Position numbers and translations under genes: made by a program | Assembly (NCBI GenBank): GCA_051362555.1 | Contig: CM120647.1 | Coordinates: 13,802,651-13,866,650, forward strand | DNA length: 64,000 nt | From: Lingula anatina | Lineage: Eukaryota; Animalia; Brachiopoda | Direction: 5' to 3' | Notes under the pieces: generated by a model | What the model was told of the DNA's origin: nothing | Database searches by the model: none | Seen by the model: the letters and a program-made list of their open reading frames with translations, nothing else | Part shown: piece after piece, positions 11,900 through 63,578 of the stretch | Numbering within the stretch: position 1 is the first letter of the stretch | Layout: each line of letters opens with the position of its first letter

Positions 11900-13027
11900 T
11901 CACTCCTCGGGCACTTCAAACAACGTCTGCGCCTCGTAGCCTCTGTGCGTCATTTTAGCGTACGCAGCGTCGTAATCCCGTAGAAAGGCAGCATTATCGG
12001 CAATGTACTCGTCTACAATGTCGGCGGTGGACATGTACGTTGTCCTGGGGCAGTCGGTGTTCAGGGTCTTACACGAGGTCTCCTCTCCGTTTTCGTCCGG
12101 TTTGATATCGCGATACAGACACATATCGGAGTTCAGCATAAAACCCCTGCCGCCGCCCCCGCCGCCGCCTTGTCGTTTTTGGCGATGGTTGCTGGCCATT
12201 TCCGCTTGTTCGTCGACGTCGGCGAGCTTGCGTAGGATTTCACGTAGGAGAGACGAGGGGTTAGGACCTGTAGAGTCCCTATCAAAGTCTTGTGCTGTCG
12301 CGGTACGTTGTTGAGTCGAGTCTTGTTGTCTCCTTCTTACTGTTGTCCACTGCCAGTGGTTATCGCCAGCGTCCATCTGACTGAATGACATCTCTTTGAG
12401 ATTGCGGTAATACTCGTTGTCGAAAAGGTCTCGTACCGTTGTCCACCGTCCACTAAAACCGGACTGAGTGGGATCGGCGCGGCCAACCGTGTGGGCACCC
12501 ATCAGGGCAACAACATCGCGAGCCTCCATGTCGAAATTGTCCTTGAAGTACCCCAAGGTGTTCTCAATTCCTTCCAGAGAGCTGGGGAAGTTGTCCATCG
12601 CACTCGTGGTAGGGGACGTGGCGCAATCCTCGCGGCCCCAGCGAAAGGGGGTCGTGACTGTGTCTCCCCGGCCCATCTCTGTTGCCACCACGCCAGCAAG
12701 GGCCCAGAAATCGGCCCTGGATATCACACCGGTCAGTCTGTTTCGATCGTAAACGTTCTCAATTCGCCGATGGATGTTTCCGAGGCCGAGGTTGGACGGG
12801 TCGTCCAGGTTTATGCACCCGTCGCACCTCTCGCTCACGCAGTCATGGAAGGCCAAGCGGATGGCGGACGCGACCAGAGGACGCTGGAGGCCACCGTCGG
12901 GGTTTCTGTTGAAAGTTCCGTTGATGAGGTCAGTTAGCAAGGACTTGGCACGGTCGTATTCGGCTCTGGTGAGACCGTGCACCGCCACTGCACAGAGGGC
13001 GGCCGAGACGATCAGTACTCGCAGCAT
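11900..13027 (-). CDS. Secreted non-animal heme peroxidase (peroxidase-catalase superfamily, APX/CcP/plant-like), intronless CDS, 375 aa
   Basis: ATG at 13027 (the ORF track start at 13057 is GTG). Signal peptide MLRVLIVSAALCAVAVHG; distal motif IRLAFHDC; CDGCINL; ISRADFWALAG; FRWGRED; proximal His motif VALMGAHTVGRA; GFSGRWT; FDNEYY; MLNSD. Visibly more GC-rich than its flanks. Confidence 0.93.
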   Translation of the reverse strand: MLRVLIVSAALCAVAVHGLTRAEYDRAKSLLTDLINGTFNRNPDGGLQRPLVASAIRLAFHDCVSERCDGCINLDDPSNLGLGNIHRRIENVYDRNRLTGVISRADFWALAGVVATEMGRGDTVTTPFRWGREDCATSPTTSAMDNFPSSLEGIENTLGYFKDNFDMEARDVVALMGAHTVGRADPTQSGFSGRWTTVRDLFDNEYYRNLKEMSFSQMDAGDNHWQWTTVRRRQQDSTQQRTATAQDFDRDSTGPNPSSLLREILRKLADVDEQAEMASNHRQKRQGGGGGGGRGFMLNSDMCLYRDIKPDENGEETSCKTLNTDCPRTTYMSTADIVDEYIADNAAFLRDYDAAYAKMTHRGYEAQTLFEVPEE

Positions 13028-16000
13028 CTTCGGCCAAAGTAGAGTGTAGCGCAACACTTCTCGCTGTCTGTTATGAAGGCTTCATACTCAATGGATAGTT
13101 TTGTACCTGGCGAGTATCCTTTGTCCAGTTTTTATTGGAAGATATCTTATTCAACCAAGGCAGGTTTACACGTTAACTCTGATGCAGTCCGATCCCGCTC
13201 AACACCTATCCGAGCCACACCCAAAGACTTACGTTTACCCCGAAGTCGTCCTAAAGCTTCAGCTAGACGAAGTTTTTCTACTTTAGGTAATTAATCAATC
13301 AATTTGCCATAGTTACACGTACATCCTTTAAAAGCAAAAGAATCCGACCTAGGAGCGTCCTGCTTTCTCCAGTATAAGCCAGGTTTTAACAATGATGCCT
13401 GTGGTATGTTAAGGACACTCAACCTTGAAATGACAGCGTTACGGAGCTTGAGTACGTTGTCATCGCGTCACGACGTTATTAAATTTATGCTTACAATATT
13501 ACTCTAAAAGTTACTTAGCCTTGAAATTAAACGTACTAGGTGCCACAATAATCCCTCTGTTGTCGGAGTGTTACCATTGTTGGCGTGAATATTATTGTAT
13601 CAATTGAATAAGCGTTTGATATATTCACCTATGAATAGTCATTTGGCAAATAAAGCCACATTTTGTTCTATTCTTGAGGTGAAAGCATCGTATTCAAGAC
13701 TCGCTTTCTTTTAGACAACAAACTTTTGGACTCATTGACGTAAATCTCATAAGCAATTCCCTCAAAAGCGACGACGTGCTTAGTAACAAAACAAGGAAAA
13801 CCAGTGAACTTCAGTACTTAAAAGGAGGAATGGAACACGTCATATTAACAGGTACATGTAGTTAAAGACAAAAAATTTAATGTTGTTGTTTGACAGGCAA
13901 TACTCGATTGTATTACCGATACCCAATTTATACTGATCTTGCTTATCCATATTAAAACCAGCATCATTTTGTTGTGAGCACCCCCCCCCCCCCCCCCCCG
14001 CGCCATCCAACTTCTAGACATTACACATTAATGGAAAGAAATCTGAATAATTTCGAAATAAATTTTTCTTAGGTGGCAGAAGGGATGGTTTCGTTGGCAA
14101 TTTAAATCTTTGACGTGTATCCCTGTTTAATGTACCTTTTCAGTACGATGTACAACCCAGACAACCAGTTAACGAAGGATGTCGATCTTATCCATCTTGT
14201 ATCAGTTTAAGCCCCAGTGCAAATCCCATAAGTCTATTTCCATGCATTAATTAGTCAATGTATTCGACTGATACATTTTAATACGATACATCGTATTATT
14301 TACATCAAACTTGTTTAAATCTTTTTACACCTTGAACACAAAAGGTCGCAGTACATAGAATAAAACTCATCAAAACAACCTTCACGTTGAAGACGTCAAA
14401 CAGGGTCGTACATGTGCCAGGGTATCTTAATCGAATCGTGCTCAAAGTCGTGTAAGGTGGACACCGCGGCTCGATTTACACAAGGCATATTTAGCCCGAA
14501 GTTTGTTCCAAATTTTTAGATCGAAAATGTAGCCTAATGTAGCGTAATGGCGTGGTACATTATTCATGTCTTTTGTTATAAAACTGGCAGTGCTTTTGTT
14601 TTATTGTCATGCAACGGATGTACTTCTTTTCTCAAAGTCAAAAATATTATTTAAATGTTTGGGCCAAATTTCGGACTATGCTTCTTTTGTGTAACAGGTG
14701 CTGTCGAGGCCCAGCTGTCTGCTCTATCGGTGACTTGATCGGTCAGGCGTCCAGGGTGACACCTATGGTGTCTGACCATTCCACGGACGGTGATCAAGGC
14801 AGTATCAGGGACGCGTATACCATTGACTTTATTTGAACCGAATTAAGTGAATATGTAGTCCTCTCTTTTTCTCTTTCTTTCTTTCTTTCTTTCAAAGATA
14901 AAATGGAGAGAGAAGAGTGAGGGAGAGAGTGAGAGAGTGAGAGGGGTAAAATGGAAAGAGGGAAAGGGGAAGGGAGAAAGAGAGAGAGAGAGAGAGGGCA
15001 GTATCCGCGGCCAATACACAGATGACTCACGAAGTGTATGAAATTAAATACACATTTTCCTGTTTTGTTCATCAAAGAGAAGTTGAGTCATGACTGAATG
15101 GCAAACATCATAATGCTGGCCCGTAGGGAAAAGGTCCACTCTAGGTAAAAATTGATCTAGGTACATGACGTTTTTATGGGAAAAGGTCCACTTTTTCAAA
15201 AAAAAAAAGAACCCCCCTTTTGAAATTACTGGCTACGGGCCTATAATGATGCACTCACTGAGAGTGGAGAGAGAGAAAGAGAATAGAATCCATTTATAAC
15301 ACAGCTTATTAACAAGTGTCACGCAGAGTGCAAGCGGACAGTTTCATTCTATAACAGCAGATAATATCTGCAACTATATTCTAATGTTGGCAAATACACA
15401 GAATCGAACGTTTTGTTTGAGAAACCGCTGCCGACCAGAGCACGTATTTATAAGTTAATTTATCGCGTTTTAAAGGGTTTTGATTCTGGAGACACAAATA
15501 TCTTCTTTTGCACTCCCCATGTCAAAAGTAAGATCTCAAAGTAAACAGAAATTGAAGAACTGACGCCTTGTTGGGTTACCCACCACATACTAAAGCACTT
15601 TCTAGTCCTATACGTGATCACCAGGTATTTTTAATGAGCAGGCTTGATCTTATTTTATTAAATCTTATCAACAGATCATATTTATTTTCATTTTATACTT
15701 GTAAGAGGGAAAGGAATAGGGTTTAACTTTATAAAAATAACATCAAAATGTTAGTTTCGGAAATCTGAAGGGGGGGGGGGGCTGTCCTGCCCCATCTCCC
15801 TTGTATGATTCGGCATGACAGGTCCATATACAAAATTGTACGTGACTTAGTGATAACACGTGTTCCTGAGCGAGCGAGACAGAGAGAGAAAGGAAGAGAA
15901 AGAGAGAGAGAGAAAAAAAAAGAAAAAGAGCTACAGAGAGAGAAAGAAAGCACGCACACACACACACATCATTTTTTTCACCCAAGCCTACCCACTCTAC

Positions 16001-16879: not shown

Positions 16880-18798
16880 TAGTAGTAGTAGTAATTTCGT
16901 GCGCCTATATAGGTTATTTATAAAAAAAATACATGTATATGGAAATCATAAAATAGAAGGAATTCGAAAATGCTTTGGTTATCATTATCTTTGTCAGTTG
17001 TCATTCATGTATTCAGGGTGTTGACAGTCAAACCGACCTCCCAACATGTACTCCTACACAAGTATGCAGCGAGGTGCGTCCGTATCTCCCGGCGTGGCTC
17101 TCCACCGCCAGATCTTCACAAATGAGAGACGTCACATGGTTGCCACGCAACGCTACCCTGTTCTGTAAGTGCCCGGATGAAGCCTCGCCCTGTGCGACTT
17201 CGTTTGGGTTTGACTCACTCTCAGGGCAAATATATAATGGCGCCAAGTTGCACACGTGTGGAGCACCGTCTCCTGTGCCCTACTGCGCCTTTTCAACCCC
17301 GGGAGTTCTAAAGAAAGAACCTGTTAAAAACGCTGCAGGGAAGGATACGGTGAAAATTGAATTGAGCTGTAGGTGCCCCGGCGACAGCAGAGCCGTGTTT
17401 TCAGATCCAAAGCTGGAAATCACGACATTTGAAAACGAGATAAAGACTGTGGATATCTCGTGTGAAAGGGTAAATATATAAACATTTTCCTATAAATGAA
17501 AATGAAAACTTATCTTTTATTATTAATAATGTATGAATGGTATAAATTTAGGAGGCATTGGGGGGGGGGGAGGGTTTATTCCTTCAATGACGAAACGAGT
17601 GGATGCTCTAAAGGGTAAAACTGACAAATAAACAAGGAAACAAACTTAAAATACATTTAAAAGCCAGTTTCTAAGGTGTTAATTTGAAACCCTCAATGTT
17701 GCGATAAAAGCGAGGGTGCCGTTACAATGGCAGATCCAGGGAGTGGCCTTCTTATTATACTTGTAGTTAGAATATTTTCGTCGAATTTTATACTTGCGGA
17801 GTACCGTTAGGGGATTACCCGCTGATGTTTTGAGCCCACTGTAAGAGCATTCAGAACAGCGGACGAACAGACCCGCGGATCAAATATGGCCGATCCACTT
17901 GAATGCTTGTTGCGTATTCAGTGTCTAACCGGAAATTAACCGGCAAGCTTTTTAGTGAGTCGCTTTACTTGATCTGCAGGTCTGTTAGTCAGTTGTTCTG
18001 AATGCAACAGTTTTGTCAAGCATCTTACCGTTGTCAGGTGTCAGAAATTTGTAGCATTGAAAACGATGCTGAGTCTCCTCAATGTTTGGACGTGTCTTAC
18101 GAGTACGGGGACGAGAGCCAAATCGTACTGGGAGATGTTTCAAGGCCTTGCAGGTAATGTTATGGGTAACGTGATGACTTACCGCTATATAATGACGTAA
18201 ACGTAATAGGAAAATGACGTGGTGATTCGTTCTTTGTGTCATAAAAAATGAATGATGAAATACGAATGTCAACTCGCAATTTATGTTATCTCCAAGACTC
18301 GTCAGTGAATATAACCTGACCTGTGACGTAACCAAATAATGACGTTAAATATCTGCATTCTTCAGTTGTGATCAACATATTTGGATGGTGATAATGAAGT
18401 AGTCTTCCTCTTTAGGACTGGAAACTCAAATACTTTCAGAATCTCTCGATTTTTCTTTCTGTTAACGTTTCTAGGTGTCCCGGTGGGAACACTTGTTTAC
18501 AGTATTATCGCCATTGGTCTCGGTTAATGCAAGAAGCAAGAACTGCCATAAGACGGAACCGCAAGACAATTTCACCTAGCATGATGCAGAGATTTAATTA
18601 TCGTGTAAAGAGAAAAGAGCTGTTGCCATTATGTTTTCCTGTAAGTATCTTATTTTGATAATTTGAATTCATATTTAATAATTGAAATTAGAGCTTCCAT
18701 TAATCAATTCTATTTTTCTATAAATCTGTAGGCCTATAGAATATTTTGTTACGGCAATTTTTTAACAGAAAAATGATCAAATAAAAATGCACACACTT

Positions 18799-31895: not shown

Positions 31896-34800
31896 CTAGC
31901 AGAAGTGAACGTAGTCCCCGTTCGGTAAAACAGATGGCAGTTTATACCTGGGGTTGGTCAAGAGAAAGTAAAGTTCAGGGAGTTTGGTCCTCACCAGCTT
32001 CTTTGTACACAATTCCCACTCGTCGGAAATGGTCTTGCATCTTTTCCTCTGTGCTCCAAGGATGGACGTGAGGCCCCAGTAAAAGAATTCCGTAAGAAGA
32101 CATTCAAAATCACAGGTTGGATCTCCAAAGTGATACAGGCCAGTGCAGTTTGGATATCTGAAAATTGTGTTGAGAACAAAATCATCGAAATTATCAAAAC
32201 GATGTTTTGTGAGAATTTATTTAAATCAGGAATTGTGAATATCGTAGTGTTCTGTTTGATTGTGTCGCCATGGGTAAATTGTACTTTTTTAATTAAAATG
32301 TGTCACGGTTGATTAGCTTTTCGTTTTTCTCTTATTTTTCTAACCTAAGCTTTTGAGAGTGTCATGAATAAACGCATGAGTTTTCATGTCAATGGGACCT
32401 ACAGCACCTGTTTCGTCACGGGATTATGCTTTAAGTACCTCATGAAGGTTAAAAATAATAAAAAAAATAATAAACTTATTCTTCCAAAATATGTTTTTGA
32501 TGTAGTTTGTGCATAGAAGTAATTTGCTTGTCGGTATTCAAATGTTGTGATCAAGTATATGGCCGCTTTCCCAACAGCGGACTAACAAGTCCGCGGATCA
32601 AAGTTTGCCGACCCAGTTGAATGCTTGTTGCGTAATCTCCGCTGGGAATATACATGTATTCAGTGTTTGCGGTATTAGGGGACTTGTATTCATTTTACAG
32701 CGCACAGCGGACGACTCGTGTTGTAGGGCCTACCTAGTACAAGTACCAAAATATGAAACCTGATTTGAGGGAAAATCATTTACCTGAATGTATGATTGAA
32801 TGCAAAGCCACAGTCCTTTATAGCCTTGAGCATAGCCTTGCCCAGAAGAGATGTGTCATTCTGTGCAAACTGTTCAGGGAAAGCATATGTTATGCCAATA
32901 TCTTGGATGAGGTGGAGAATCTCTTCAAGAGATTCGTCGAACTCAGAACTATGTTCCTCTGGTGGATGGATTTCATTGGCCTCCAGGTCTTGGAACATGT
33001 ATTTCCTGAGAGAAAATAAAAAGTTAAATCAAAGCGAAAAGTACCACTGACTTGTTGACATTTGATAAATAACTTTAAGGAATTCATTAGACTTGCTATA
33101 AATCCGCTATGATTATTCTCCTATTTCATAGCGGGACTTCTATTGTATTTTAATGTGTATTTTAAGAGATATCTTGGGACATAAGATTAATCCATAGGTC
33201 AAAGCACATCAGTGCTTGAAAAATTATTTGTAGTGTGTTTTCGCATCCACATACCCTTCCGTTGCTTTCTCGACTTGTTCAATCTTGGCGTTCATTTCCG
33301 CTTGGTCTCTGAAACAGCGACAGTATTTAATTAATTGCTTGCGTCGCTACCTCGTATACATGTAGCACAATACACAATGTGTATGGGCCTGTAGAGCCGT
33401 ATGCTAATCAACTGAATACCAATCCACAACGAAGAGCAATATCCCCTTGAACACTGGCAACTTACATGAATGCGGTATATTTGTTGTCTCTTAATCCGAA
33501 TATAAGGCAATATTCATACTCTCAATAACACGTACAAGAGAGCTCCGGGGGGCAGGTTGTATATATACAGTGTCATTAAACGATGCTTGTTGGAATAATA
33601 ATAATAATACTTTTATTAGGTCAATCTTATTTTTCAACCATGTTTTTAACCTACAGAGACAGGAATACCCTTTTTATCAACATTAACGACCTAGTACAGG
33701 TACTTTAGTATTATCATAACGCTGAACTTTATTCTTCATTTACAATGACAAAAATATCAACCTGAACATGATCAACGTAGCCCTTCGTTTCACCATGTTC
33801 TTGATCACAGCTGGACTATCCACAAGACCGTCACCATTGTTATCCAGGTACTGGGCCATCACTCCAGCAGCATGGATCATCTTAACATCCGGGAATCCAG
33901 CAGTTGCGACAATATACACGCCAAATACGTTGAGATATTTCGCAAAGAACGGTTTCAGTTCGGGAACAGTGCTTGGCAAACGAGAGATTGTTTTGTTGAC
34001 GCAAGGGATGCTGGGATACTTTATAGTGTTTTGGTTCTGCTTTTGGGCCTTGTGCTGGAACAAAAAGATAGAAGAGGGAGGGATGGGGGAGGGGGAGGAG
34101 GAAAGGGAGGAGGGAGAGGAGTGTAGGGCCACTGAAGAAGAGGACCTCGAGTCAAATAAGGGCCTGAATACACTGAAAGAGAAGTAAGAGAAGGGATGGT
34201 TGATTTTGTCGCCTGCAGGTGTGCTGCACTCATAATTGATCTTTCCTGTCGCTGCGCCTGCGCACACTGCCTTTATGTACTGACACCTGTGTCAAAGTAG
34301 ACAAATAAATATATAAATAAACAATAAACAAAATAAAATAAATCAACGATAAGTTAAAAGAATTACATGTACCATAGATACTGTAAACGTTCGTGTCTAT
34401 GATTGGAAATGAAAACAAACTGCTTGTAATTAAAAATGAATAAATAAATGAATAAATAAAAATAAATAAATAAATAAAACTTGTTTTTATTAAAGCTCTT
34501 GCAGACAGGCTGAGCTACGCTTTAACCATTTTTTCTAATAATTCTAACACGTGTCCTCCATTGACCAGTGGCCACGTTCAGTAAAGGGATGTGGATTTTT
34601 AAGTAGGCATGACGTCATAACTCTGCTGACCTCCTGTAGAAGGCATCGGTCGACCAAGTTACAGGCAGTTCCCATGTTGTTTTCATCACAGCTCAATAAA
34701 ACACATTCACGATAATATCAGTCAACTTGAACTTACTGACTCTGACGCTGTGTAAATAATACTAGGCAGGTGCAGTTGCAACCCGGCCGTTTCTCATTTC

Positions 34801-36056
34801 CGTATCAGATACAAATTTTGAAAATTCTTTGGAGTGCCGTTTGTTTTTCTCGATCTGGAGGTTTGGTATGGGTATTGGGGGGGGGGGGGGGGGGAGGGCT
34901 TGGATTGTTGTTTAGTTATCCCTCTTTTCAAATCTTGAGATTCTTGCAAATGTAAAAAAAAATAATAATAATAAAAAAATTAAAAAAAGAACAATCCTAA
35001 CGAGTGAATATTATGTTTAAATTAGTTTAATATATTGATTAAAAATATGGCAAACTCTTACATGTTGTCGTACTTCTTCCCATTGTTGTCACACAGTGGC
35101 GTGTCACCTTTGAAATATGAATTCACGCTGCATATGGTGTTCTCATTGTATCTTGTACAAAAAGGCAGCACTGGGATGGCAAGAGTAGCTGTAAGAAACG
35201 TTGAAAACAAACGTTTACGATCTAATCTTGTTTAGGGCCCCTTTACACTGGACGGCGTTCTTTCTGCGTCCAGCAGTAAGGACCCATTTGAGAGTTAAAA
35301 AATTATAATACTTTACGTGTCGACAACTGGCCGATCATTGAGCATTCATTCTGATACAAAATCAATGCTCCTGTCTCCTTATTAAGACCACAGCGATGCT
35401 AAATTTCATGGTCGCAGAAAGGACGCAGAAAGGACGCCGTCCAGTGTAAAGGGGGTATTATGAACAGATACGATGACACACATCTGGATTGGAGGCGATT
35501 TTTAGCCCTATGGCACTGAATGAGGTGACCGGTGTATCCTGGCTCTGTCCATAGAAATGTCTTAGGCTTCGTTCACATGCAATGTCTATTTTCTAATTTC
35601 TATTTTCTATTTTCGCTATCTTATTATCACGGTCTGTGCCCTGAATATCCCGCCGCGTAATTACTGGCAGCGCGAGCCAGTTACTTATAGTAACTTATAG
35701 TAACTGGCTCGCGCTGCCAGTAATTACGCCGCGGGATATTCAGGCCACAGACCGTGATCATAAGACATACCGCAAATAGAAAATAGAATTTAGAAAATAG
35801 ACATTGCATGTGAACGAAGCCTAAGTGTGAGACCTGAACGTCGGCTTGACTTTAATATTACAAGAAAAATGATTTGCCTATAATCTTTAAAGAGTTAATT
35901 GAGATGCTTTTGAAAAGTATACTGCACTATTTTGAGGCGAATCAAGGAATATCGATAGGAATAGAGTAAACCAACTTTTTAAACCTCGTGATACTCACCA
36001 TCAAACAACAGCAGTGATAGTACTGAACACTTCCAAATTTTCAAATTCCCCGACAT
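31896..36056 (-). CDS. Secreted Kazal-domain plus EExxH zincin-like protein (paralogue B), about 415 aa, 6 exons
   Basis: Minus-strand exons 36056-35999, 35188-35062, 34286-33762, 33308-33255, 33005-32784, 32157-31896, all GT-AG and phase-consistent. Signal peptide MSGNLKIWKCSVLSLLLFDATLA; six-Cys Kazal-like CTRY..CSV..PLCDNNGKKYDNMCQYIKAVC..YEC; Ser/Pro linker; core FFAKYLNVFGV, HAAGVMAQYLDNNGDGLVD, FDESLEEILHL, CDFECLLTEFFYWGLTSILGAQ, LPSVLPNGDY. Confidence 0.88.
35235..35457. mobile_element. PIF/Harbinger-like MITE with TTA target-site duplication
   Basis: tta|gggcccctttacactggacggcgttctttctgcgtcc ... ggacgcagaaaggacgccgtccagtgtaaagggggta|tta. Confidence 0.85.
35565..35821. mobile_element. 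Foldback MITE forming a near-perfect hairpin with about 120 bp arms (Harbinger-like)
   Basis: tta|ggcttcgttcacatgcaatgtc...cgcgagccagttac-ttatagtaacttata-gtaactggctcgcg...gacattgcatgtgaacgaagcc|taa. Confidence 0.9.
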
Positions 36057-38050
36057 CTTGTGAGAACCCTGTCTGCCAGTGTTAAGCACAGAGCGTGTGT
36101 ACTTGCTTATTATAACTGTTGGCTTTCAAAATTGTTTTCCTCTTGATGATTGTTATAATGACAACTTGCGTACACTACTCTGTCTGCAATAAATGGCAGC
36201 TGGGAACAAAACATCTTAAATCCACCAACGTGCTTCTTGATTAAAAACCTTCCGCGCGAGGTCAACGAGACCCTGTTAAAGTGCACGTTATTGGTAGAGA
36301 TTATGTTATGTTTCCCTTCTGTATCAGCAGGCTCGCAGGAAGGATTGCAGTAATCTTGTATGGAAAGGAAGTCACGTCAGAAATTCCTTTTTATGCAGGG
36401 TATTATACTCATACGGTTTATTTAAACATTTGGCATCATACCCTTAATATCCGTTTTCTGGTTTGAACTTTACTGAAGCTGTGTTGGCCGCGTTTCTCAA
36501 GTATGAAGAACGTGGATAAATGCAATCGTTGATAAAGTCCGTCTCTCTGGGTTTGACCTTGACTCATTTATTTATAAAAGCACGGTTTAGATAATATTTA
36601 TGGCATATGGTGACTAGCACACATAAAACCCTATTGAATGGTTCGCTGAATGGTAATACCAATAAATCATAACACGCCACATGATGTGGGTTTAAAAAAG
36701 GAGTGGGTAAGCAACAATATTTAGGAGGAAAGGAAGAAGCCCGTTAAATCTATTATAGTACATTTAAGGGGGGTATTAGGTGAGTAGCTATAGCTGACAT
36801 CCGATGTATTTTAAATGCACAGTAAAATGGGGGTGGGTATTATATGGCCCAGTAAATGGATTATATGTAATAAACCTTATTTTCAAATTTGAGATGAGGA
36901 GAGCTGAGATATGCAGTTCCACATTGCAAATATTATTTTGTGTGAAACAATTGTGTTTGCATGCTAAGAGGAACAAAATGGCAATTAAGCTTCACCTTCA
37001 TGTACCTTCTCACTCAACATACTTCCGGTTTTGAAGTTCATCGCCAACGGGAGGGGGGGGACTCTGGAAAAAGAGTATGTACTACATTAGAATTACAAAA
37101 GTGTTGTTGCCTGCAAATTCGCTGCATCCACTTACGCTCAAACTCTTGTATATTATTTTAAAATAAGTTAACACTACATCATGTCCACGAGCATTTGACT
37201 TGGTTAACTACAATAACATCTATCCAGATATTTACGGTTCTTACCTTTTTAAATATTAATAAATATTGGTGTTCCTCTGCATATTTCTATTTCCAATAAA
37301 TTCCAATAAACAAATATCATGCTTTCCTATTCTCACAAGTCTAAAAATCTTCCCAGCCGTACACAGGAATAAGGGCAATCGTCTTATCAGTATGGTCTAT
37401 CTAATCAATGGGACACACGACTGGCACAGATGTGTCACGAAAAAGAAATGGAAATTTCGTCTAACGCACTCGGTTAGAAAAAATATAATTGCCAAAGTTC
37501 TCACCTCATATAGGGCATTCGACGCAAAAGGCCTAGTTCATCTCAGAAAAAGTAAGTAAATTACAAGTACTGGAAAGTCCCGTTCTTATTTTAGTCTTAG
37601 TGTAAAAGCTAATAGAAATGATTTATTTTAATAATCATATCTGTTGATATTGATTTGTAAATATGTCCAATGTCTACGAAAAATGTTTAGGAACAAATAT
37701 ATGTATCATCCTGGTTTAAGTCAGATAAAGCACTCGACGCGAAGCTTTATGCGAAATGGAGCAGATAATTGTTCCGAACTCATTTCGCTCGTACTTTGAG
37801 ATAATCTCCGCGATTCATCTATAATCCGTGCATGTTGTGACCTTGTGCGCGAAATGATAAAACCGAACAGATAGTTCCACCAAAATTCACTGGGGATTTT
37901 TGATGCCAACGGCTGTATATATATAACCTAAAATGAACAATGAAAATTATCAGCGCCGAGGAAGGGAATAAAGTGGTTTCGAAAAGGCTTAGCTTTGAGA
38001 CAATAACGCCAGCGACCATCAATTATATTGCGTTATTTTTTGCTGTAGAG

Positions 38051-41000
38051 ATGATGTTAACACATTTATTTCATTGGAAGGGCGTAGTGATGGTACTCTG
38101 TTTGGTCCATGGTGAGTACTGACTATTTGCAGAAGGTATTCTCGCTTAAAAGACAGATTATTTAGATTGCCTGTATTGCATCTGCATTTTTGGGGTAAAT
38201 CCTTTTTTATAGGTGTTTCAAAAATTGGTTTTGTAAACGTCGACATAATATTTTCTTTTTTACAATATTCCGCATTTTTACTGAACCACTTCTTGGCTAC
38301 AAAGTCAAGTCATCACCTGGGGTATCATACCATTCTACAAAAAGACATGACTAAAATGGCATAACGATTATATTTTTCTTCAGCTTGAAATTTATTACTG
38401 TCTGGTAGAAAACATATCAATCCAAGTGTATATCAAAAATATTATAAATACAGCATTTAGTTGACATACCACTAGTGTATTTCTAAATTATGCATTTTTC
38501 TTTTAAATTTCAAACTTTAACTAAAATTTTCATGGAATTCCAATGGTATTCCCATGCAGGCATAATGCGAGCAATGAAAAAACCTATGGCAACTTTCTAG
38601 CGACTGGGATTGCTTAAAGGTTGCTAAAAGGTTGTAAGCGCAGTGTGACCAAAGCTTCTGATAAATAAATATGCGTTCCTGCTCGTGCCCCTGCAGCCGT
38701 ATCCATGTACGGTCGAGTTCCAGTGTAATGCTAGCTTTCAGTACCTCATACGACAACAGGGCTCCGTATCTCGAAAGGTTCGCTATGTTGCGCACGTGCG
38801 CAAGCGTCTCGATTCCATAACAGATTCTATTTCGAGATACGGGGATATGGAATCGAGACACGTGCGCAACATAGCGACCCTTTCGAGATACGGAGCCCAG
38901 GGCTGTATCCTCTTCAGGGGGTTTAGTTAGGAACGTCTTCAACCAGTTTGAATCAGAGCCAAAATATGCCAGGAATATTATAAACGAAGTGTTGCTCAGT
39001 ATTAAAAAAGAAGACTTAACATTGCTGTTCTTCCATTTCCATCAATCAGCAAGGGCAGCTGAGAAGACGGCGGCGACATCCATGGTAAAAGCAGAGGAAC
39101 ACAATTTCCCTACTTTGTCCCCCGATCCCGTTCGTTTCCTGTGGCCACTCAGAACCCTTTTCTTCCCAACCAAACACAAATCAAAGAAGAAGAATAAATA
39201 TTGTCTTAACACTAGAGACCCCATCTCACCAAAAACCTTGTTGTCTTTAATCAAAAGAAAACCAAAAAAGAAGAACAAAAAGTGCCTGGACAAGACAATA
39301 TCGCCTGTACCAGATACCTTACCAGAGCTGAAGACGTTCTTCGTGAAATACCTCAACGTATTTGGCGTGAATATAGTCGCCACTGCCGGTGTCCCGGATG
39401 TTAAGATGATCCATGCTGCCGGAGTGATGGCCCAGTACCTGGATAACGATGGTGACGGTTGTGTGGATAGTCCAGCTGTGATCAAGAACATGGTGGAGCG
39501 TAGATCTACTATGATCATGTTTAGGTTTGTGTTTTCTGTTATTTCTTTTATATTGGGGGCGTTCATATCCAACTTTTAAAACAGGGTGAATCGAATCGAT
39601 TAATGGTCATGTGCATACGATTATTTTCGTCTTTTTCGTATTATTTCCTATTTTACTATAATTTATATGAATAATAGTTCAAATAACACGTGATGTCTCT
39701 TTTTTTCTTCTTTCCTTTTTTTTTGGTTTACTGCATTCAAGCTCAAAACTTTGGTGTGTTTTTTTGTTTGAAATGGAAAACAAAAACCGTGTTGTTTAGC
39801 TATTTTAGATGTAAATAATTTTATAGAAATTTCAATTAAGTGAATCCTTTTTGAAGAATTTTCAAAATTTTCATGTTTGTTTTTATGTAGAGACGAGGCT
39901 GAGTTGGAAGAGCGTGCCGACGAGATTGATGAACTTCTTGACGAGATAATTGGGTAAATATTTAAACATTTAATCCATATAAAATTGTCTTGTTTCTGAT
40001 TATCCTCATGTACCCTTGAGCATTAGGGTTTTAATGTTTTTAATTCGACTCTTTGTTAGGACTAGAAAAGCACTCCGAGAGCGCAGACCTCCGCCAAGGC
40101 AGCAACTTGTAATTATTATTGATAATTGATTGATTATTGATCCGGATCACCACCGAAAACCTATCATCTCTTCCTTGGCCCACTTCTGACAGTTCCTAAA
40201 AATTTCATCAAAATCGGTCCATAGCGTATTGAGTTGCGTTGGTGACGGCAAACAGACAAACAAACAGACAAACAGGGGTGAAAACATAACCGCCTTGGCG
40301 GAGGTAGTAATTGCCATGCCATCTCGTACAAGGACGGGCGGGGAGGGGGATGGCGAAGGAGTTGGGGAGGGGAGAAGAATGGGTTCAGGCGGGAAGGAGG
40401 GCGACGAGTGGGAATTCAGTCATAAGTAGATCCCAGGTTAATAAACTGAGGCTCTGTGCTACATCGAACCCACCCTCATTAGGTTCTAGCGACGATTTCG
40501 CTGCAAAATAATTGTCCTCATTCTAGATTTTGATCCACTTACGTCGCTTGTCTGTTTCATAGGGAGATTTCCCTGGTAATAGATCTCTATCACGGGGAGA
40601 TTTCCCTGGTAACGACTTTGTATCACAGGGAGCTCCCCTGGTAACAACTTTGTATCACAGGAAGCTCCCCCTGGTAACAACTTTAATTTGCATCACAGGG
40701 AGCTCTCCTGGTAACAACTTTGCATCACAGGTGCCCTGGCTTCACCTGTTCACGATTCCAACTCAGTTACGTCACGCTAACCCTTATTTATTTGAATTGA
40801 GGGCGGATTCGATGTTACACCTTGTTATAATGCATATAGAAACTACCTTTCACGACAACAGTGATTATCACCCAATTTGTTCCGCAGAAAAATCAAATTC
40901 CAAGCTCTTTTTGGAGATGAAACTCACCCTCCAGAGGAGAGTAGCCCTGACTTTGACGCCACTCTGGAAGAGACACTGCACCTTGTCCAAGAAGCTGGAT

Positions 41001-42277
41001 TAGTGAATGCTTTCCCGAGACAGTTTGCTGTTGACGAAGACTCACTACTGGGTCGGGCTTTGGAAAAAGCTATCGATGACTGTGGTAATGCTTTTGACGG
41101 CACCTTTAGGTAAATATTCTGCATTGGGTAAATGAATGGTCTGGGTTTGCTTTTATTTAAATGATATCAATGATGGTTTAATACGGCAAAATATATAATT
41201 TTTTTTGTCTTTTGTGTAATGATGATAAAAGGCAAATTGTCTCTAAACAAAATAAGCTAGTTTACAATCTATACAGTAGGCCTATATATATGTTTGTTTG
41301 TTTGTTTGTTTTCTCTTATGTTATGCAAAATTATTCTTTCCACCCCAGACGTATTCACCATATTTTTGCTTGTTAAATTCACATTCCTTTCGAAAACGAC
41401 AATCTTGGCGAAGAATGTTGTTTCGACCTTCATATCTAAGTCACGCGGATTAGATTCATGTACGTTTTCTAATCTAGTTAAGTATGACGAAATGTGCGGT
41501 AATGCCGTCATCTGGCATGTTCAGATCTCCATTAAAAAACATTTCACTCGATTGTTTCTACATCAAACCTTCAATTAAACTGATCTTTAGTCGCTGAATC
41601 AAGTCTCTAGATTTAACACAGACTGCTTTTATTGTGTTACGTAATATTTATCCTATATTAATGTTACAGATGTTCCAACAGACACATAATCCAAAAACAA
41701 AGCAATTTCCCTCTAATCATGCGCTTGACTGCAAGTTTTCTAGAAAATATTAAACTGGCAAAGGGATAATTAATCTCATGAAAAAAAGCAAATATCATAC
41801 ATGATAAAGCCAATGTTTTTTCCGATATATATTTTTTCAAGTCAGCCAAAAAGTGACTATTTTTATGAAAATCAAACGTGTTATTTCGCAAGAACATGTA
41901 TAAAAGTCTTAAGGTTGCAAGATCAATATTACCGTGATAAATTAATGTATTTGGCAATCAAACACTTTAAGCGATTATTTAAAGGTACTTTTCTTGCATT
42001 TAGGTATCCTGACTGTGAAGGCGTCTTCCACTATGATGATGACACGTGTGAATACAAATGTCTTCTCACGGAATTCCTATACTGGGGACTCACGTCAATT
42101 CTCGGCGCACAGGATTACCCCGGGCGATGTGACGAAATCTCGGATGAGTGGGAGCTGTGCACGAAAGATTTAGTAAAGGAAAAACTACCAGAACTTTACT
42201 CTCTCTTGACAAGAAGAATTGGAAAGTACAGGTTGCCTACAATTTTGCCGAACGGAAAGTATGGAAAGTTCTGTTGA
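38051..42277 (+). CDS. Secreted EExxH zincin-like protein (paralogue A), about 364 aa, 5 exons
   Basis: Exons 38051-38111, 39050-39524, 39891-39953, 40888-41109, 42004-42277, phase-consistent. Signal peptide MMLTHLFHWKGVVMVLCLVHARA; Lys-rich repeats; FFVKYLNVFGV, QYLDNDGDGCVD, FDATLEETLHL, YDDDTCEYKCLLTEFLYWGLTSILGAQ, LPTILPNGKY. Intron positions in the core match paralogue B. Confidence 0.9.
38757..38900. mobile_element. Palindromic MITE in intron 1 of paralogue A
   Basis: cagggctccgtatctcgaaaggttcgctatgttgcgcacgtg ... cacgtgcgcaacatagcgaccctttcgagatacggagcccag. Confidence 0.8.
40062..40310 (-). mobile_element. HINE-like element, reverse copy of the 19888-20282 family
   Basis: ctagaaaagcactccgagagcgcagacctccgccaaggc ... 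gtgaaaacataaccgccttggcggaggta. Absent from the paralogous intron of pseudogene C (about 59930). Confidence 0.8.
40555..40740 (+). repeat. Minisatellite, about 32 bp x 5-6
   Basis: Unit atcacagggagctcccctggtaacaactttgt; shorter homologous array at about 60320-60440. Confidence 0.85.
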
Positions 42278-55877: not shown

Positions 55878-56760
55878 CTAAGTGCGTTTTAAGTTGGTTG
55901 TGCTACAACTGAATAACCCTTTGAACTGTGATCTGAATTGTGAACCACTAATCAAAAATATCAGTAAATTGAAAGCATGGTATGACAGCTCAGCAATTCT
56001 ACTTACATAATGGAGATAGAGCAAAGACCAATCAGTGGAACCCGCCGATACATATGCCGTTTCAACCATGTTAACGAACGCTGTCGTACACATAATTAGA
56101 AAACAAAGAGACGAAGCCAACAAAGAAAAAGTGCTAATTATTTCTTTTGCCTTTTTCTCACCCCCTCTTCCAGATGTGAGTTCTTTTCGAATTTTCCTTT
56201 GAGCCCAGATGAAATGAATTATCTTTGTGTTCATTCCGATAATGGTGAGTAACATCATGGCTCTTCCGGTGATGCGTATTGTTGTTACAATCCCTAAGCG
56301 CCTTTGCCAGTCCTTGTATTCATATGCGGCTAACGCACACGGGGCGTCGGTGTAGATTAAGCTTGCAAAGGCCACCGCTCCACAAGCTACTGTTGCGGCA
56401 AAAATCATCTGCAAAAATGAAAGAATTTTCAGCTTCAGAAATTGGTTCATAATATAATAAAAGTTATAGTAGCATTATGTGAGCTGGTAGATATATCTAA
56501 ATCAGTAAAATCATAGTCTGAGGGTTGAGGCCGTGCATTGTGAAAAGAAAATAATTAATTAACTTACACTGTTGGTCAAAAAGTTTTCCCAACTTCAATT
56601 ACATGTGCTTTTGCTTACAAATGAGCACCTCAGAGCTGTCAATCGTTTCAGACATAGCTTTTTATTCCAGATATCATATTTAACATGACTGATGGTAGGC
56701 CTACATACTGGTACTCCAAAAAGAGACTTTATTATAAAACACACTAATTTAACTAAACGC

Positions 56761-56827
<67 letters not shown>

Positions 56828-58381: not shown

Positions 58382-58937
58382 GACTTTGACTTGGCGTTCG
58401 ATGTAACAGTAGTTTCCAATGCAATAAATAAAATAATATGCGAATCGTGCCTTATTTATATGGCATGACATGAATTAATGTAAGGATGCCTGTCATTGGG
58501 AAATACTATCAGCCACTCATAAGCCTCAAGACAAAAAGATTCATATGCATGATGATAAACATGAACATTCCTTTTGTCTTTCCCATGATTAAATGTTTGG
58601 GTACAAGTTAATCTATTTAATAATAATAATAATAATAATAATAATGATAATAATAATAATAATAATGAAGATGATGATGTACATGTAAGTCTTGAAAACG
58701 AGCTACACATACACAAATCTAATGGCACTGAGGTGACTAAATGGCTCAAAGTCTTTAGTATCTGTTTGCTTTGATATAATCAACAATGGGTTAAATGCAT
58801 GTTTGTGACTTACTGCCTTATCTGAGCTTCTTATTCCCATTCACTGCAACTGTTATCGAAATATCTTTCTAATTCAATTTATCCAGTTAAAAAATCACGG
58901 AAAAGAAATTATAGCAATCCCTAAAACATTTTTTTAA

Positions 58938-59181: not shown

Positions 59182-59755
59182 TTAAGAGCAGTATATCAAA
59201 ATTTTCTGAACAAAATTTGGTTCTTAAATGGTTATTTCGTCAGAGTAAAAAGGTCAGTGTGGTGTCTTACCAAATATCACAGGTCGTTATTGCCACCATA
59301 ACGATCAGAGTCCATTTGAACGGTTGATCGAACAGCACATGCTGCACTTTGCTCAAGCACATTTGGCTACTGCCTCTGTTACAGCCGTCGCTGGACATTA
59401 TCCCAGCTGTACCTGTGAAATGAAAACACACATGCATGTGTACGATTCTCTACTGTTTTCGAGTTTTTAATTTTCATTGTCTATACATACCCAGGGATGT
59501 TGTGTGGCCATGGCGGTATGCCGATCACTGAAGCCAGATAGGGTCACTTTATTCGGTTTTAAGGGTATTTTAGGATGAAAAGATAGTATTATTTCTCGGT
59601 ATGTACATGTATGTTGAATAGCTAACACGATTTTAGAAAAGACAACAAGGGACAAGAGTACAGAAAAAAAAAGTTCCCAAACACACCGTTTTTATAGAAA
59701 TCTCAATTAAGTGAATTCTTTTTGAAGCACCTTTTTCACGTTTGGTTTGATGTAG

Positions 59756-61300
59756 AGACGAGGCGGAGTTGGAAAAGCGTGCCGACGAGATTGATGAACT
59801 CCTTGGCACCATAATCGGGTAAATGTTAAAAGGCCTACCCATTGAAACATTTAATCCAAATAAAAAATGTCTTGTTTCTGATTATCGTCATGTAGTCTTA
59901 AAAATTAAGATTTTAATGATTTTATTTGAACTCTGTGTTAAAACAATTACCATGTCATATCGTACAAGTTTATGCTGTGAGGGCGGGTAGGGGGATGGCG
60001 AGGGGGTTAGCTGTGAGGGCGGGTAGGGGGATGGCGAGGGGGTTAGCTGTGAGGGGAGAAGAAGGGGGTTATGGAGGGGAGAAAAAGGGGAGGGGCGGGA
60101 AGAAGGGCGGTAAGTATAGTAGGAGGGATGAGGGCGATGGAAGGGAGATGAGTGGTATTTCACTCATAAGTAGATCCTGGTTTAAGAAACTGAGGATCTG
60201 TGTTACCTGGAATCCGCCCTCATTAGGTTCATATACAAATTTCGATTCTATCGACGATTCCGGTGCACAATAACTACTGTAGCCTCATTCTAGATTTTGA
60301 TTCACTTACGTCGCTAGTCTCTTTCACAGGGAGATTTCCTGGTAACAGATCTGAATACAGGGAGCTCCTCCTGGTAGCGACTCTGTATCACAGCTGCTCC
60401 CCCTAATAACGACTTTGTATTACAGGTGCCCTGGTTACACCTGTCCTAGATTTCGACTCAATAACGTTACTCTAACTCTTATCTATTTGAAACTTATGGA
60501 GGGAGGATTCAGTGTTACAGGGTCCTACATTATTTTAATTTCTATTAGACGTAATGCATAGAAAACACCATTCACGATAATATTGATTATCACCCAATTT
60601 GCTCCGCTGAAAAATCAAATTCCAAAAGCTTTTTGGAGATGAATTTATTTATTAATTTCCTGTGCTGCACCAAGTCACAAATGTTGCTACAAAATTGAAG
60701 TTTTTTTTTAGCCCCGACTTTGACGCTACTCTGGAAGGGACACTGCACCTTGTCCAAGAGGCTGGATTAGTGAATGCTTTCCCTAGACAATTTGCTGTGG
60801 ACGAGGACTCGCTTCTGGACGGGCTTTGGAAAAGGCTATCGATGACAGTGGTTATGCTTTTGACGGAACCTTTAGGTAAATCTTTTGTATTTGGTAAATG
60901 AATGGTCTGGTTTTGCTTTTATTTAAAGGATATCAATGATATTTTAATACAGCGAAATATATATATATTTTTTTGTCTTATGTGTAATGATGATAAAAGG
61001 CACATCGCTTAATCAGTTTATAGCTTCAACACAGGCTGCTTTTATTGTGTTGCATAGTAGTTGTCCTAAAATTATTTTACAGACATATTCCAACAAACAC
61101 ATGATCCAAAATCAAGCAATTTCCCTTTTATCATGCGATTGGCTACGTTTCCAGAAATATGAAATTCGCAAAGGGAAAATTTACCTCATGAAAAAAGTAT
61201 CATACATGATAAAGCCATTGTCTTTCCAAGAATTTTCTTCACGTCAGCCAAAAAATGACTATTTTTTTATGAAAGTATACAGGTCTTAAAGTTCTATTAA
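59756..61300 (+). pseudogene. Pseudogene of the EExxH zincin-like family (paralogue C, partial duplicate of A)
   Basis: Exon 59756-59818 is intact. The next acceptor is mutated cag>ctg (about 60607); 66-bp insertion at 60644; LEETLH>LEGTLH; 1-bp deletion near 60818. The last coding exon is deleted, with intron sequence joined to the stop/3'UTR at about 61290. Confidence 0.9.
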
Positions 61301-63578
61301 CTTTGAGCGCGTTTGTTTTATCATGATCGACTATACATTTGTATTAAACGCACCAGTTTGACACATTACTACTTAGGAGCGTATCACATACGCAGTTGAA
61401 CCATTTTGTGAATATGATGGGCACAGAAAGAGAAATAAAAAATAGTTTTAAAAACGCCTAAGTGCCTGCGTGATCATGACCTACTCAAGTCTTGAATCAG
61501 GTAGAATTGATCATTTATCTGGGCCAATATGTTAGTTATTGTTCACTGTTCGCCTGGGTACTCGCTAGGGTGCTAGCTAGGGGTGAATTTATTTATTAAT
61601 TTCCTGTGCTGCACCAAGTCACAAATGTTGCTACAAAATTGAAGTTTTTTTTTTTTTTTCTTGTTATCTCATTATTGTATTGCAGATCTCTATAGTCGCC
61701 AAACATATGTCATAAACTCGTTTACATCCTGTACTTGAGTGGCTGCTTTCAAACATCGGTTTCACTTCTTGGTACACATGCGGACATATGCTACTTGTAT
61801 ACCTTTATGGATTGAAAGTATTTCTTGCAGGTTGTTTCAATAATTCGACAGCACCTGCGCATAAAAATTATGGAATTTTGCATACAAAGAGCAGATGTTA
61901 TGGTGCGTAAACTGAGCTGTGCGCTACATCATTGTTGCTCTGCGCCAGAATGGTGTACAGAATGAGTGTCAGAGCAACGTAAAAGCTACATGTAGCTTGT
62001 TAAATATACCTTGTGATGGAGTCGCTTGTACTAGCTCTGACGAACAGCGACAATCTGAGGGCGTTCTTCTTCAAAATTTTGCCTGGGGCGCTTCCATATT
62101 TGGAAGTCACACGTCACAGCTGTGTCCGCCTGGATCCATATTTGGAAGTCATAAGTCTCGTACGTCACAGGTTCAGCCGCCTGGAGCTGCCTTTCCCGCC
62201 TTGCGCTGAAGTTATCTCGTGCAGACGAGACAAGATGCCTGAAGTTTGAATTGAAAATATATTGCAGTCGAAGGTCAGTGCCACAATACAAGCAACATTC
62301 TGCTTTACAAACTGATTTTGGTGTAGCCATTGCGCAGCCCTTATAGTGGTATCATACAGTGTAGCTGTCAAATTTGGCACACGGCAAGCACGTGTATTGT
62401 GCACGGGTATATCTCAGGACTTAATGTTCTTTGATTAGCGAAAAATACAAAAACATTGGATATATCTTTTCTTTTCGAAGAATGTTATTTTATTTATTCA
62501 CTTTACATCTTAAATACAGCAAATAAAATTAAATAAAGCAGAATTAAATCTGTTTTACGTTTCATTTTGGTCTGATGACATTCAACTGCAGATTCACTGC
62601 GGAGCAGTTCTATTTGATTGACGGAAGTGTAACATGGCTGCTGTTCGCTAGAGCCGGTATTGCTGATATGGGTTATATATGAAATCAAGATCGAGCTGGC
62701 AATACCGGAATCTAGAACCTAGGGTTGAATGGTGCAAAACAGATACACATTGCCAGGTAGATTATTCTGTCGCAACGAACGCCCCGCGCAGTGCTAAGGA
62801 TGTATGCCCAGCCTGAATTAATGAGGGGCAAATTGTCACAAAGACGCGCTTTTCAAGATCCAATGTTGTCAATGTTTAAGCAGGTTACAGTATTTTAGAA
62901 TAATTGCGATAACCACCACTTTGGTAGTAAAATCATATTTATTATTTGTAATTCCTTAAAATTGGGGTTGGGGTGGGGTCCTTTTGGTGCTCAAGTAAAG
63001 GAGAAATGGTAAAATGGCATCGGTAAATGCAAAGGCATTTAATAAGTGTACTCTGACAATTCATTTATTTTCAAAACCATACATAAAGACAATAATTTTG
63101 GAGTTTTAATATAACACTGTCCTCCGTGTCTTATTCATTGATATAATGGACACATAGCATTGATCTGTGTCATGATAAATGGACGAATGCACGAAAAAGA
63201 GCACAGTGCAAAAGCTTTTTTTAGATAAACCACTCCTCGCGAAACTTTATTTGCTAATACAGCAGAAAATTTTATTTGACTTATTTCGCTTGTACTTTGC
63301 GATAATCTCCGCGATTCATCTATACCCTCGTGCGTGTTGTGATTCTGCACGCGAAATGATTGAGCCGAACAGATTGTTTGGTCAAAATTCCCTTTCATTA
63401 AGATGTTTATGAACAATGGGTGCATTATTGATGCCAACGATCATACACATGACACCTAAAATGCTCAGCAGATATTATTTTGATACTAAGGAAGTGAACA
63501 AAACGGTCCCAAATAAGCTGATCTTTGCAACATTGTAAAGAGCGATCGGCGGTTAACATACGTTATTTTGCAAAGGAG

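What the first reader, a model, noticed from the sequence alone, without database searches (positions are those of the whole stretch)
34200..35188. Kazal protease-inhibitor domain fused to the putative metallopeptidase in paralogue B only
Seen: an exon missing from the ORF track (35188-35062) bridges the phases between the signal exon and the large exon. It builds a six-Cys domain CTRYNENTICSVNSYFKGDTPLCDNNGKKYDNMCQYIKAVCAGAATGKINYEC. Known: PxC-x-x-x-G-x-x-Y-x-N-x-C-x5-C is the Kazal signature. The CysII-CysIII loop is 12 residues instead of the usual 7 and the predicted P1 is Val. Inference: exon shuffling added an animal module to a foreign enzyme, giving an inhibitor-plus-enzyme chimera, an autoinhibitory prodomain or a targeting domain.
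Basis: partly seen in the sequence, partly recalled or inferred. Interest (0 to 1): 0.8.

Follow-up and report, generated by a model that had tools for sequence, protein, structure and literature searches.

The report
Kazal-like cap on orphan zinc enzyme
One of two neighbouring sister genes in a lamp shell (brachiopod) encodes a small six-cysteine, Kazal-like module tethered to an undescribed, predicted zinc-enzyme domain; the module's altered loop makes it more likely a binding or targeting appendage than a working protease inhibitor.

Summary
Exon 35188-35062 has GT-AG ends and is needed to keep the frame. The six exons spell the 415-aa RefSeq protein XP_013384868 of Lingula anatina letter for letter, so the exon is already annotated; the domain is not. 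Stranded RNA reads cover the exon in one of four runs; no junction read was seen. The six-Cys domain (spacing 8-12-10-6-11) is Kazal-like by Pfam (E 0.005, under the gathering score), PDB (11 of 13 hits Kazal/follistatin) and predicted structure. It is absent from paralogue A and from 262 other homologues. Three inferences weaken. (1) It is not a 1-1 exon cassette: a phase-2 intron splits it and its second half shares an exon with the core. (2) The 12-residue loop and follistatin-like second half argue against canonical inhibition. (3) The core does not nest among named bacteria, and an intron-bearing relative exists elsewhere, so recent bacterial transfer is not shown. The core is an unnamed, widespread family with EExxH...E in place of HExxH...E and a PPEP/M34-like predicted fold (Z about 8); it often carries accessory domains. 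Best reading: an HtrA1-like accessory module on a likely secreted metallohydrolase.

The parts
35999..36056 (-). Gene B exon 1: start codon and hydrophobic, signal-peptide-like N-terminus; phase-1 donor
   Evidence: best 9-residue hydropathy 2.57 (no signal-peptide predictor was run); RNA depth 5-14 in X4
35062..35188 (-). Gene B exon 2: end of signal and Kazal-like N-half (C30, C39, C52, PLCDNNGKKYDN); phase 1 in, phase 2 out
   Evidence: Pfam Kazal_1 E 0.049 on this exon alone; stranded RNA cover in X4
34226..34286 (-). Start of exon 3: Kazal-like C-half (helix with C63, C70; C82)
   Evidence: helix 62-75 in the model; follistatin-like alignment
34007..34225 (-). Ser/Pro-rich, basic linker (about residues 83-155), predicted disordered
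   Evidence: 28 Ser+Pro in 71 residues; pLDDT under 50 at 77-139
33762..34006 (-). Rest of exon 3: N-part of the conserved core (H200, D210)
33255..33308 (-). Gene B exon 4 (core)
32784..33005 (-). Gene B exon 5, with the EExxH motif (E282, E283, H286 at 32926-32912)
   Evidence: E282 332, E283 334, H286 333 of 335 homologue cores
31896..32157 (-). Gene B exon 6, with invariant E352 (32090-32088), F339 where the family has Tyr, and the stop
   Evidence: E352 335 of 335; position 339 Tyr in 327 of 335, Phe in 4
38051..42277 (+). Paralogue A, head to head with B: exons 38051-38111, 39050-39524, 39891-39953, 40888-41109, 42004-42277; 364 aa; signal, Lys-rich linker, core; no Kazal-like domain
   Evidence: my model, (64% identity over 266 core columns; same intron phases 1,2,2,2); acceptor 39050 is the best of 12 in-frame candidates, not RNA-tested
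59690..61454 (+). Decayed partial third copy of A's 3' part (frameshift in the exon-4 equivalent, last coding exon missing)
   Evidence: blastn 71-81% to A and translations; tblastn 60710-60876

Best explanation
Gene B encodes a likely secreted protein in which a divergent Kazal-like six-cysteine module is tethered by a predicted flexible Ser/Pro linker to a predicted zincin-fold core, and the module likely works as a binding or targeting appendage rather than as an inhibitor. Shown: exon structure, protein sequence, transcription of the exon, absence of the module from paralogue A and from the other homologues examined, conservation of EExxH...E. Inferred: secretion; Zn binding by E282, H286 and E352 with E283 as general base (by analogy with the HExxH...E site of PPEP/M34); hydrolysis of an extracellular peptide or amide bond; docking of the module on a partner or matrix so that B acts at a different site from A, whose Lys-rich linker may play the same role by charge. 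Origin (inferred): after A and B duplicated, a piece of a two-exon Kazal/follistatin-type gene, with its own internal intron, was joined into the 5' end of the linker exon behind the shared phase-1 signal intron.
For: Loop between CysII and CysIII is 12 residues, and the model draws 35-44 as a helix, not an extended loop (pLDDT about 60). Four of the six best PDB sequence matches are follistatin entries and a fifth is FSTL1; the follistatin domain shown has a 10-residue loop and the same CxxxKAxC helix spacing. Atlas structure rows are SMOC, FSTL4/5, agrin-like and Kazal clusters (10 of 10, TM 0.52-0.61). Precedent: the Kazal-like segment of HtrA1 does not affect its protease (PMC8509474, passage). 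The core takes many unrelated accessory domains: 20 of 64 long homologues scanned hit Pfam (trypsin, EF-hand, Ig, dockerin, TPR, BNR and others), and the Atlas shows T9SS, RTX and dockerin tails. Paralogue A and homologues with signal plus core only (P0009, P0011) exist without any prodomain. Core fold: PPEP-2 Z 8.2, rmsd 4.2, 152 aligned; 13 of the 14 best rows are zincin-fold entries.
Against: No partner is known and no binding or activity was measured. Bull seminal proteinase inhibitor IIA is the best single-domain match (E 0.013), and Kazal inhibitors tolerate spacing changes (PMC13101452, PMC4999845, passages). The helix at 35-44 comes from a region with no alignment depth. The core lacks HExxH (0 of 335), Foldseek E is only 0.05, and Z about 8 is near the tool's stated background. 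B has Phe339 where 327 of 335 have Tyr, so B may be a weak or dead enzyme. Direction (gain in B versus loss in A) rests on few complete relatives: P0122 and P0007 start at or just before the core and may be truncated.
Confidence: 0.5

Rival explanations
1. Inhibitor-plus-enzyme chimera: the module is a working serine-protease inhibitor (P1 Val41, or Lys46 if the register is counted from CysIII) that shields the enzyme or blocks host or microbial proteases while the core does its own chemistry.
For: All six Cys and the G-x-x-Y-x-N-x-C anchor are intact. Seven rows besides follistatin/FSTL1 and C2 are not all inhibitors, but IIA, SPINK6, three ovomucoid rows and horseshoe-crab SPI-1 are. Atlas feature hits are small Kazal inhibitor clusters (0.80-0.82, leads only). 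Non-classical lophotrochozoan Kazals inhibit (PMC13101452, PMC4999845, passages).
Against: Twelve-residue CysII-CysIII loop; model shows a helix over P3-P3'; follistatin-type C-half; HtrA1 precedent.
Confidence: 0.2
2. B is a degenerating or repurposed paralogue: the core is catalytically weakened (Tyr339 to Phe) and the protein acts as a two-part binding protein, or the Kazal-like piece is a near-neutral passenger.
For: Phe339 against Tyr in 327 of 335 and in A; the matching Tyr-to-Phe change is used to inactivate PPEPs (PMC12828418, passage), though the positional match is not shown. No orthologue with the module was found. A decayed third copy shows turnover at this locus.
Against: E282, E283, H286, E352, H200, D210, D278 are all kept; B's branch (0.33) is close to A's (0.27); P0009 also has Phe; all six Cys are kept and the exon is expressed.
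Confidence: 0.15
3. Autoinhibitory prodomain: the module or linker folds back into the core's cleft until cut off.
For: Position N-terminal to the core on a long linker; RECK Kazal motifs are reported to inhibit MMP-9 (PMC11809362, passage).
Against: A and signal-plus-core homologues need no such prodomain; no R-x-x-R or dibasic site lies in B's linker; the Kazal standard mechanism is directed at serine proteases (PMC13101452, passage).
Confidence: 0.08
4. Gene-model artefact or minor isoform: the main transcript joins exon 1 or exon 2 to an internal acceptor of exon 3, so the whole six-Cys domain is rarely made.
For: Exon 3 holds pyrimidine-rich internal AGs, in phase 2 at 34172 and 34163 and in phase 1 at 34131. 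No junction read was displayed. Domain-combination novelties are often prediction errors (PMC4967905, abstract start and passages).
Against: Two RefSeq isoforms give this same protein; exon 2 is covered by strand-consistent reads that stop at its border; both halves match Kazal/follistatin in register across the intron.
Confidence: 0.07

Closest known systems
HtrA1/3/4 (IGFBP-Kazal-trypsin-PDZ)
   Same: Secreted animal protein with a Kazal-like module N-terminal to a protease core that has bacterial relatives; the module was added in animals and does not affect the protease (PMC8509474, passages).
   Different: Core here is a predicted zincin-fold metalloenzyme, not a serine protease; no IGFBP or PDZ domain; found in one paralogue of one species so far.
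Kazal subdomain of follistatin-type modules (follistatin, FSTL1/4/5, SMOC, agrin; Pfam Kazal_2 PF07648)
   Same: PxC...GxxYxNxC-x6-C spacing, KAxC helix, lengthened CysII-CysIII loop.
   Different: Only six Cys; no EGF-like N-terminal subdomain (definition recalled); score under the Pfam cut-off; split by a phase-2 intron.
Kazal serine-protease inhibitors (PF00050; ovomucoid, SPINK6, bull seminal IIA)
   Same: Six Cys and anchor residues.
PPEP-1/2/3 (MEROPS M34, ATLF-like) and MtfA (M90) zincins
   Same: Best predicted-fold matches (Z 8.0-8.4, rmsd 4.2-4.6, 152-168 aligned); central helix with Glu-x-x-His and a later invariant Glu.
   Different: EExxH rather than HExxH; 8-12% identity; no sequence match to any PDB chain, Pfam or NCBIfam peptidase family; extra disulfides; substrate unknown.
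Unnamed bacterial, archaeal-type and eukaryotic 'EExxH' family (for example P0007, P0016, P0060; Lingula LOC106155430 = P0122)
   Same: Direct homologues of the core, 35-52% identity; 1075 representatives at E 0.001 or better.
   Different: None of 262 examined carries a Kazal-like motif.

Membership tests
Kazal domain (Pfam Kazal_1/Kazal_2) | Six cysteines in Kazal order with the PxC-xxx-G-xx-Y-x-N-x-C anchor | tested here: met
   C30, C39, C52, C63, C70, C82; 0 of 200,000 shuffles
Kazal domain (Pfam Kazal_1/Kazal_2) | Pfam gathering score | tested here: not met
   Kazal_2 17.3 bits against 22.8 (E 0.0051); Kazal_1 13.2 against 21. Filed as Kazal-like, not as a Pfam member.
Kazal domain (Pfam Kazal_1/Kazal_2) | Helix packed on a small beta-sheet | tested here: inconclusive
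   Atlas model of 24-90 matches Kazal-bearing clusters in 10 of 10 rows, TM 0.52-0.61, all under the tool's naming bar; own model has short strands at 52-53 and 59-60 and helix 62-75, pLDDT 83-85 at 51-70
Kazal domain (Pfam Kazal_1/Kazal_2) | Disulfides I-V, II-IV, III-VI | not testable with these tools
Canonical Kazal serine-protease inhibitor | Seven-residue CysII-CysIII reactive loop with P1 at CysII+2 | tested here: not met
   12 residues; P1 rule from PMC13101452; the 7-residue norm is recalled
Canonical Kazal serine-protease inhibitor | Inhibition of a serine protease | not testable with these tools
   needs assay
Follistatin (FS) module | Ten cysteines with an EGF-like subdomain ahead of the Kazal part (recalled) | tested here: not met
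   only six Cys between the signal and residue 156
Zincin, PPEP/M34 type | HExxH on the active-site helix | tested here: not met
   EExxH; His at the first position in 0 of 335 cores; definition from PMC12828418
Zincin, PPEP/M34 type | Downstream Glu as third zinc ligand | tested here: inconclusive
   E352 invariant in 335 of 335 and on helix 346-362; distance to the motif could not be measured
Zincin, PPEP/M34 type | Zincin fold | tested here: inconclusive
   PPEP-2 Z 8.2, rmsd 4.2, 152 aligned; 13 of the 14 best rows zincin-fold; Foldseek best E 0.052; Z near the stated background of 7-8
Zincin, PPEP/M34 type | Zinc-dependent peptide hydrolysis | not testable with these tools
   needs assay
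Class 1-1 exon-shuffled module (recalled concept) | Phase-1 introns at both domain borders | tested here: not met
   phase 1 at the 5' border, phase 2 inside the domain, none at the 3' border

The most novel reading that the evidence does not exclude
B is a true two-function protein: a Kazal inhibitor with a remodelled loop (Lys46 as P1) joined to an active member of an undescribed class of EExxH zinc peptidases, in which glutamate replaces the first histidine ligand across more than a thousand sequence clusters. The A/B pair would then be a natural with-and-without experiment on how a new module rewires an orphan secreted enzyme, and the first animal handle on that family.
Probability: 0.2. 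Interest if true: 0.68.

Novelty: new variant of a known kind. Interest (0 to 1): 0.42.

Why it matters
A Kazal-like module ahead of a protease core is a known design (HtrA1), so the fusion alone is a modest, lineage-limited novelty. It was not found in any other homologue examined or in the papers searched. The larger open item is the core: a family of over 1,000 clusters with no Pfam, NCBIfam or PDB sequence match, a near-invariant EExxH...E site and a PPEP-like predicted fold. Two expressed-type paralogues side by side, one with and one without the module, make both the core's chemistry and the module's role directly testable.

Tried and rejected
No whole genome is held for this window, so other Lingula Kazal genes, the donor, and the intron position in them could not be compared. 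No listed run holds the stretch as indexed RNA; raw-read runs were laid instead, and the read tables were dominated by two inverted-repeat elements in intron 1. A search with residues 24-92 found only P0001 among 48 candidates of 228-727 aa; this is word-limited and does not exclude distant fusions. Single-sequence folding failed (pLDDT 34.7). Complex prediction of module against core with zinc gave no answer (score 0.00, alignment not used); it counts neither way. No Kazal chain appeared in the whole-model fold searches, whose lists were filled by the core; the module was not folded alone. A decayed Kazal remnant in paralogue A was tested and rejected: 973 and 1931 of 2000 protein shuffles scored as well, 68 and 91 of 500 DNA shuffles; signal and linker regions of A and B are only weakly alike (77 and 79 of 2000). 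A weak tblastn hit at 46119-46042 (E 0.04) has no DNA support (94 of 500 shuffles). No bacterial donor was found: 0 of 80 GTDB loci carry the disulfide insert. The careful tree did not finish; the quick tree leaves the 16 insert-bearing rows unresolved as one clade, whereas FastTree gave the 14 then included 0.978; no rooted clade test was run. Alignment A2 could not seed a locus search. Paper searches: EEXXH plus metallopeptidase 0 papers; EEXXH alone 9 listed, none by title on peptidases; the accessions 0 papers; the follistatin/Kazal/SPARC/agrin query 0 papers, so the non-inhibitory status of follistatin modules is recalled. Earlier scan findings: nothing near, nothing by sequence, eight unrelated by words.
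Full report
Setting. The window is intron-rich animal DNA: neighbours hit PI3/PI4 kinase, amiloride-sensitive channel, a haem peroxidase and a weak 7TM family. A search with the large exon returned one protein, P0001, named by its sources as Lingula anatina LOC106154878.

The observation. Gene B runs on the minus strand in six exons: 36056-35999, 35188-35062, 34286-33762, 33308-33255, 33005-32784, 32157-31896, all with GT-AG ends and phases 1, 2, 2, 2, 2. Joined, they equal P0001 (415 aa). Without exon 2 the frame closes at codon 24. The exon is therefore real as a model and already in RefSeq, which names no domain (precomputed Pfam '-'). In RNA, 1 of 4 laid runs (X4, about 6% read) covers exon 2 at depth 4.7-9.6 and exon 1 at 5-14, with first mates on the + strand only, as expected for a minus-strand transcript in most stranded libraries, and with zero depth in the unique intronic bins; X7 and X9 give about one read, X1 none. 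Splicing of the whole domain thus rests on RefSeq, splice signals and in-register similarity across the intron. Internal pyrimidine-rich acceptors in exon 3 leave alternative splicing open.

Is it Kazal? Pfam gives Kazal_2 E 0.0051 (17.3 bits, cut-off 22.8) and Kazal_1 E 0.095, and nothing else. Against the PDB, 11 of 13 matches at E up to 10 are follistatin, FSTL1 or Kazal inhibitors; the best is follistatin (E 0.0009 over two domains), and two are complement C2. The Atlas gives Kazal clusters by features (0.80-0.82, leads only) and Kazal-bearing proteins in 10 of 10 structure rows (TM 0.52-0.61, under the naming bar). Each line is weak, but all point the same way, so 'Kazal-like' is sound while formal Pfam membership fails. 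The reactive loop is not canonical: 12 residues, modelled as a helix at 35-44 with pLDDT about 60. P1 is CysII+2 by rule (PMC13101452 and PMC4999845, passages), which gives Val41; counting back from CysIII as in a 7-residue loop gives Lys46 (inference). The follistatin domain aligned has a 10-residue loop and the same helix spacing, which places the module nearer the follistatin type. That such modules do not inhibit proteases is recalled; my search for a source returned nothing.

B only? Paralogue A lies head to head, about 2 kb away, has five exons with the same intron phases except the extra one, and is 64% identical over the core. Its signal exon splices in phase 1 straight to a Lys-rich linker. 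No remnant of the module is detectable in A's protein or DNA. A Kazal-like motif occurs in 1 of 263 proteins held (P0001 itself) and in 0 of 160 loci read in six frames; Pfam finds Kazal in 1 of 86 aligned members and 0 of 64 long homologues. These sets are the best-scoring part of larger lists (120 of 549; 150 of 1075; 80 of 307 and 80 of 281 loci). A third Lingula copy, P0122, starts at the core and may be an incomplete model. Gain on B's line is the simplest reading; loss in A is not excluded.

Exon shuffling? The 5' border has the phase-1 intron shared with A, but a phase-2 intron cuts the module at Met62 and its second half shares exon 3 with the linker and the first third of the core. 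This is not a symmetric cassette. Capture of part of a two-exon Kazal-type gene, or insertion followed by intron loss, would fit; neither could be tested without the genome. Domain shuffling is reported as common in Lingula (PMC4595640, passages); 'Kazal' does not occur in that main text and the two supplement passages I saw of four concern SPARC.

The core. Residues 156-415 belong to a large unnamed family with no Pfam, NCBIfam or PDB sequence match. Across 335 cores, E282, E283 and H286 are kept in 332, 334 and 333, E352, D210 and D278 in all, and none has His at the first motif position. A confident model (pLDDT above 90 over most of the core) matches PPEP-2, PPEP-3, Vibrio collagenase, MtfA and other zincins best (top Z 8.2, rmsd 4.2, 152 aligned; Foldseek E 0.052). 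PPEPs use HExxH, a later Glu and an oxyanion Tyr (PMC12828418, passages). The likely reading is a zincin in which Glu replaces the first His; activity is not shown, and Z about 8 is near background. B has Phe339 where 327 of 335, A included, have Tyr; whether this is the oxyanion Tyr could not be measured. The family is a frequent fusion partner: 20 of 64 long homologues, chosen by me for length or clade, carry a Pfam domain of many kinds, and P0037 and P0263 show small Cys-rich N-termini on Pro/Thr linkers with no Pfam hit.

Foreign? In FastTree runs of 255 and 335 cores, A, B and P0122 group with P0007, P0009, P0011 and eight more unnamed sequences (support 0.978) that share an extra Cys pair. 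None of 80 GTDB loci has that insert. In a 52-row quick IQ-TREE run (30 of the 80 GTDB loci kept, spaced by me to thin Poribacteria), all named prokaryotes fall on one side of a branch with SH-aLRT 99 and the Lingula genes on the other; the insert group itself is unresolved. L156 carries the insert and an 81-nt GT-AG intron with an in-frame stop inside the conserved motif, so it is likely eukaryotic. The only named animal hits are from Lingula. The family is mainly prokaryotic and patchy in eukaryotes; an old transfer is plausible, a recent bacterium-to-Lingula transfer is not supported.

How it most likely works. A secreted, probably zinc-dependent hydrolase is carried to a partner or matrix by a disulfide-bonded Kazal-like cap on a flexible tether (0.5). 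[quoted passage not shown] Rivals: working serine-protease inhibitor (0.2), weakened or passenger state (0.15), autoinhibition (0.08), minor isoform or model error (0.07).

Verdict. Observation confirmed; interpretation partly supported; new variant of a known kind; interest 0.42. Papers were seen as search listings or passages only; none was read whole.

Noticed in passing
window 31896-42277; homologues P0002-P0263, L001-L160: The core family itself (EExxH...E, PPEP-like predicted fold, 1075 clusters, no Pfam model) looks undescribed in the papers searched and is common in Poribacteria, Colwellia and other marine bacteria; it merits its own study.
   Followed up: partly
window 59690-61454 (+): Decayed partial copy of paralogue A's 3' half, 71-81% identical, with a frameshift and without the last coding exon.
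   Followed up: partly
window 35238-35454, 35561-35825 and 38759-38898: Three short elements with terminal inverted repeats (MITE-like) in the first introns of B and A; the two in B attract hundreds of RNA reads from other copies.
   Followed up: partly
window 35180: C>T on + in 8 of 9 reads of run X4, changing Ala23 to Thr near the likely signal cleavage site; allele or population difference.
   Followed up: no
window 11900-13081 (-): Single long ORF for a signal-bearing haem peroxidase of Pfam PF00141 (E 8e-28), the non-animal peroxidase superfamily by recall; possibly another patchily distributed gene.
   Followed up: no
window 39160-39310 (+): Paralogue A's linker holds two similar Lys-rich, Cys-containing segments, an apparent internal duplication (pI 10.6), next to a strongly acidic core (pI 4.4).
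   Followed up: no
window 55878-58474 (-): A 521-codon ORF with an unexplained 400-residue N-terminal part followed by weak 7TM hits.
   Followed up: no
window 16957-17481 (+): Cys-rich 174-codon open frame with no Pfam hit.
   Followed up: no
P0248, P0187: Two relatives replace EExxH with CExxQ, a likely inactive or re-liganded variant.
   Followed up: no
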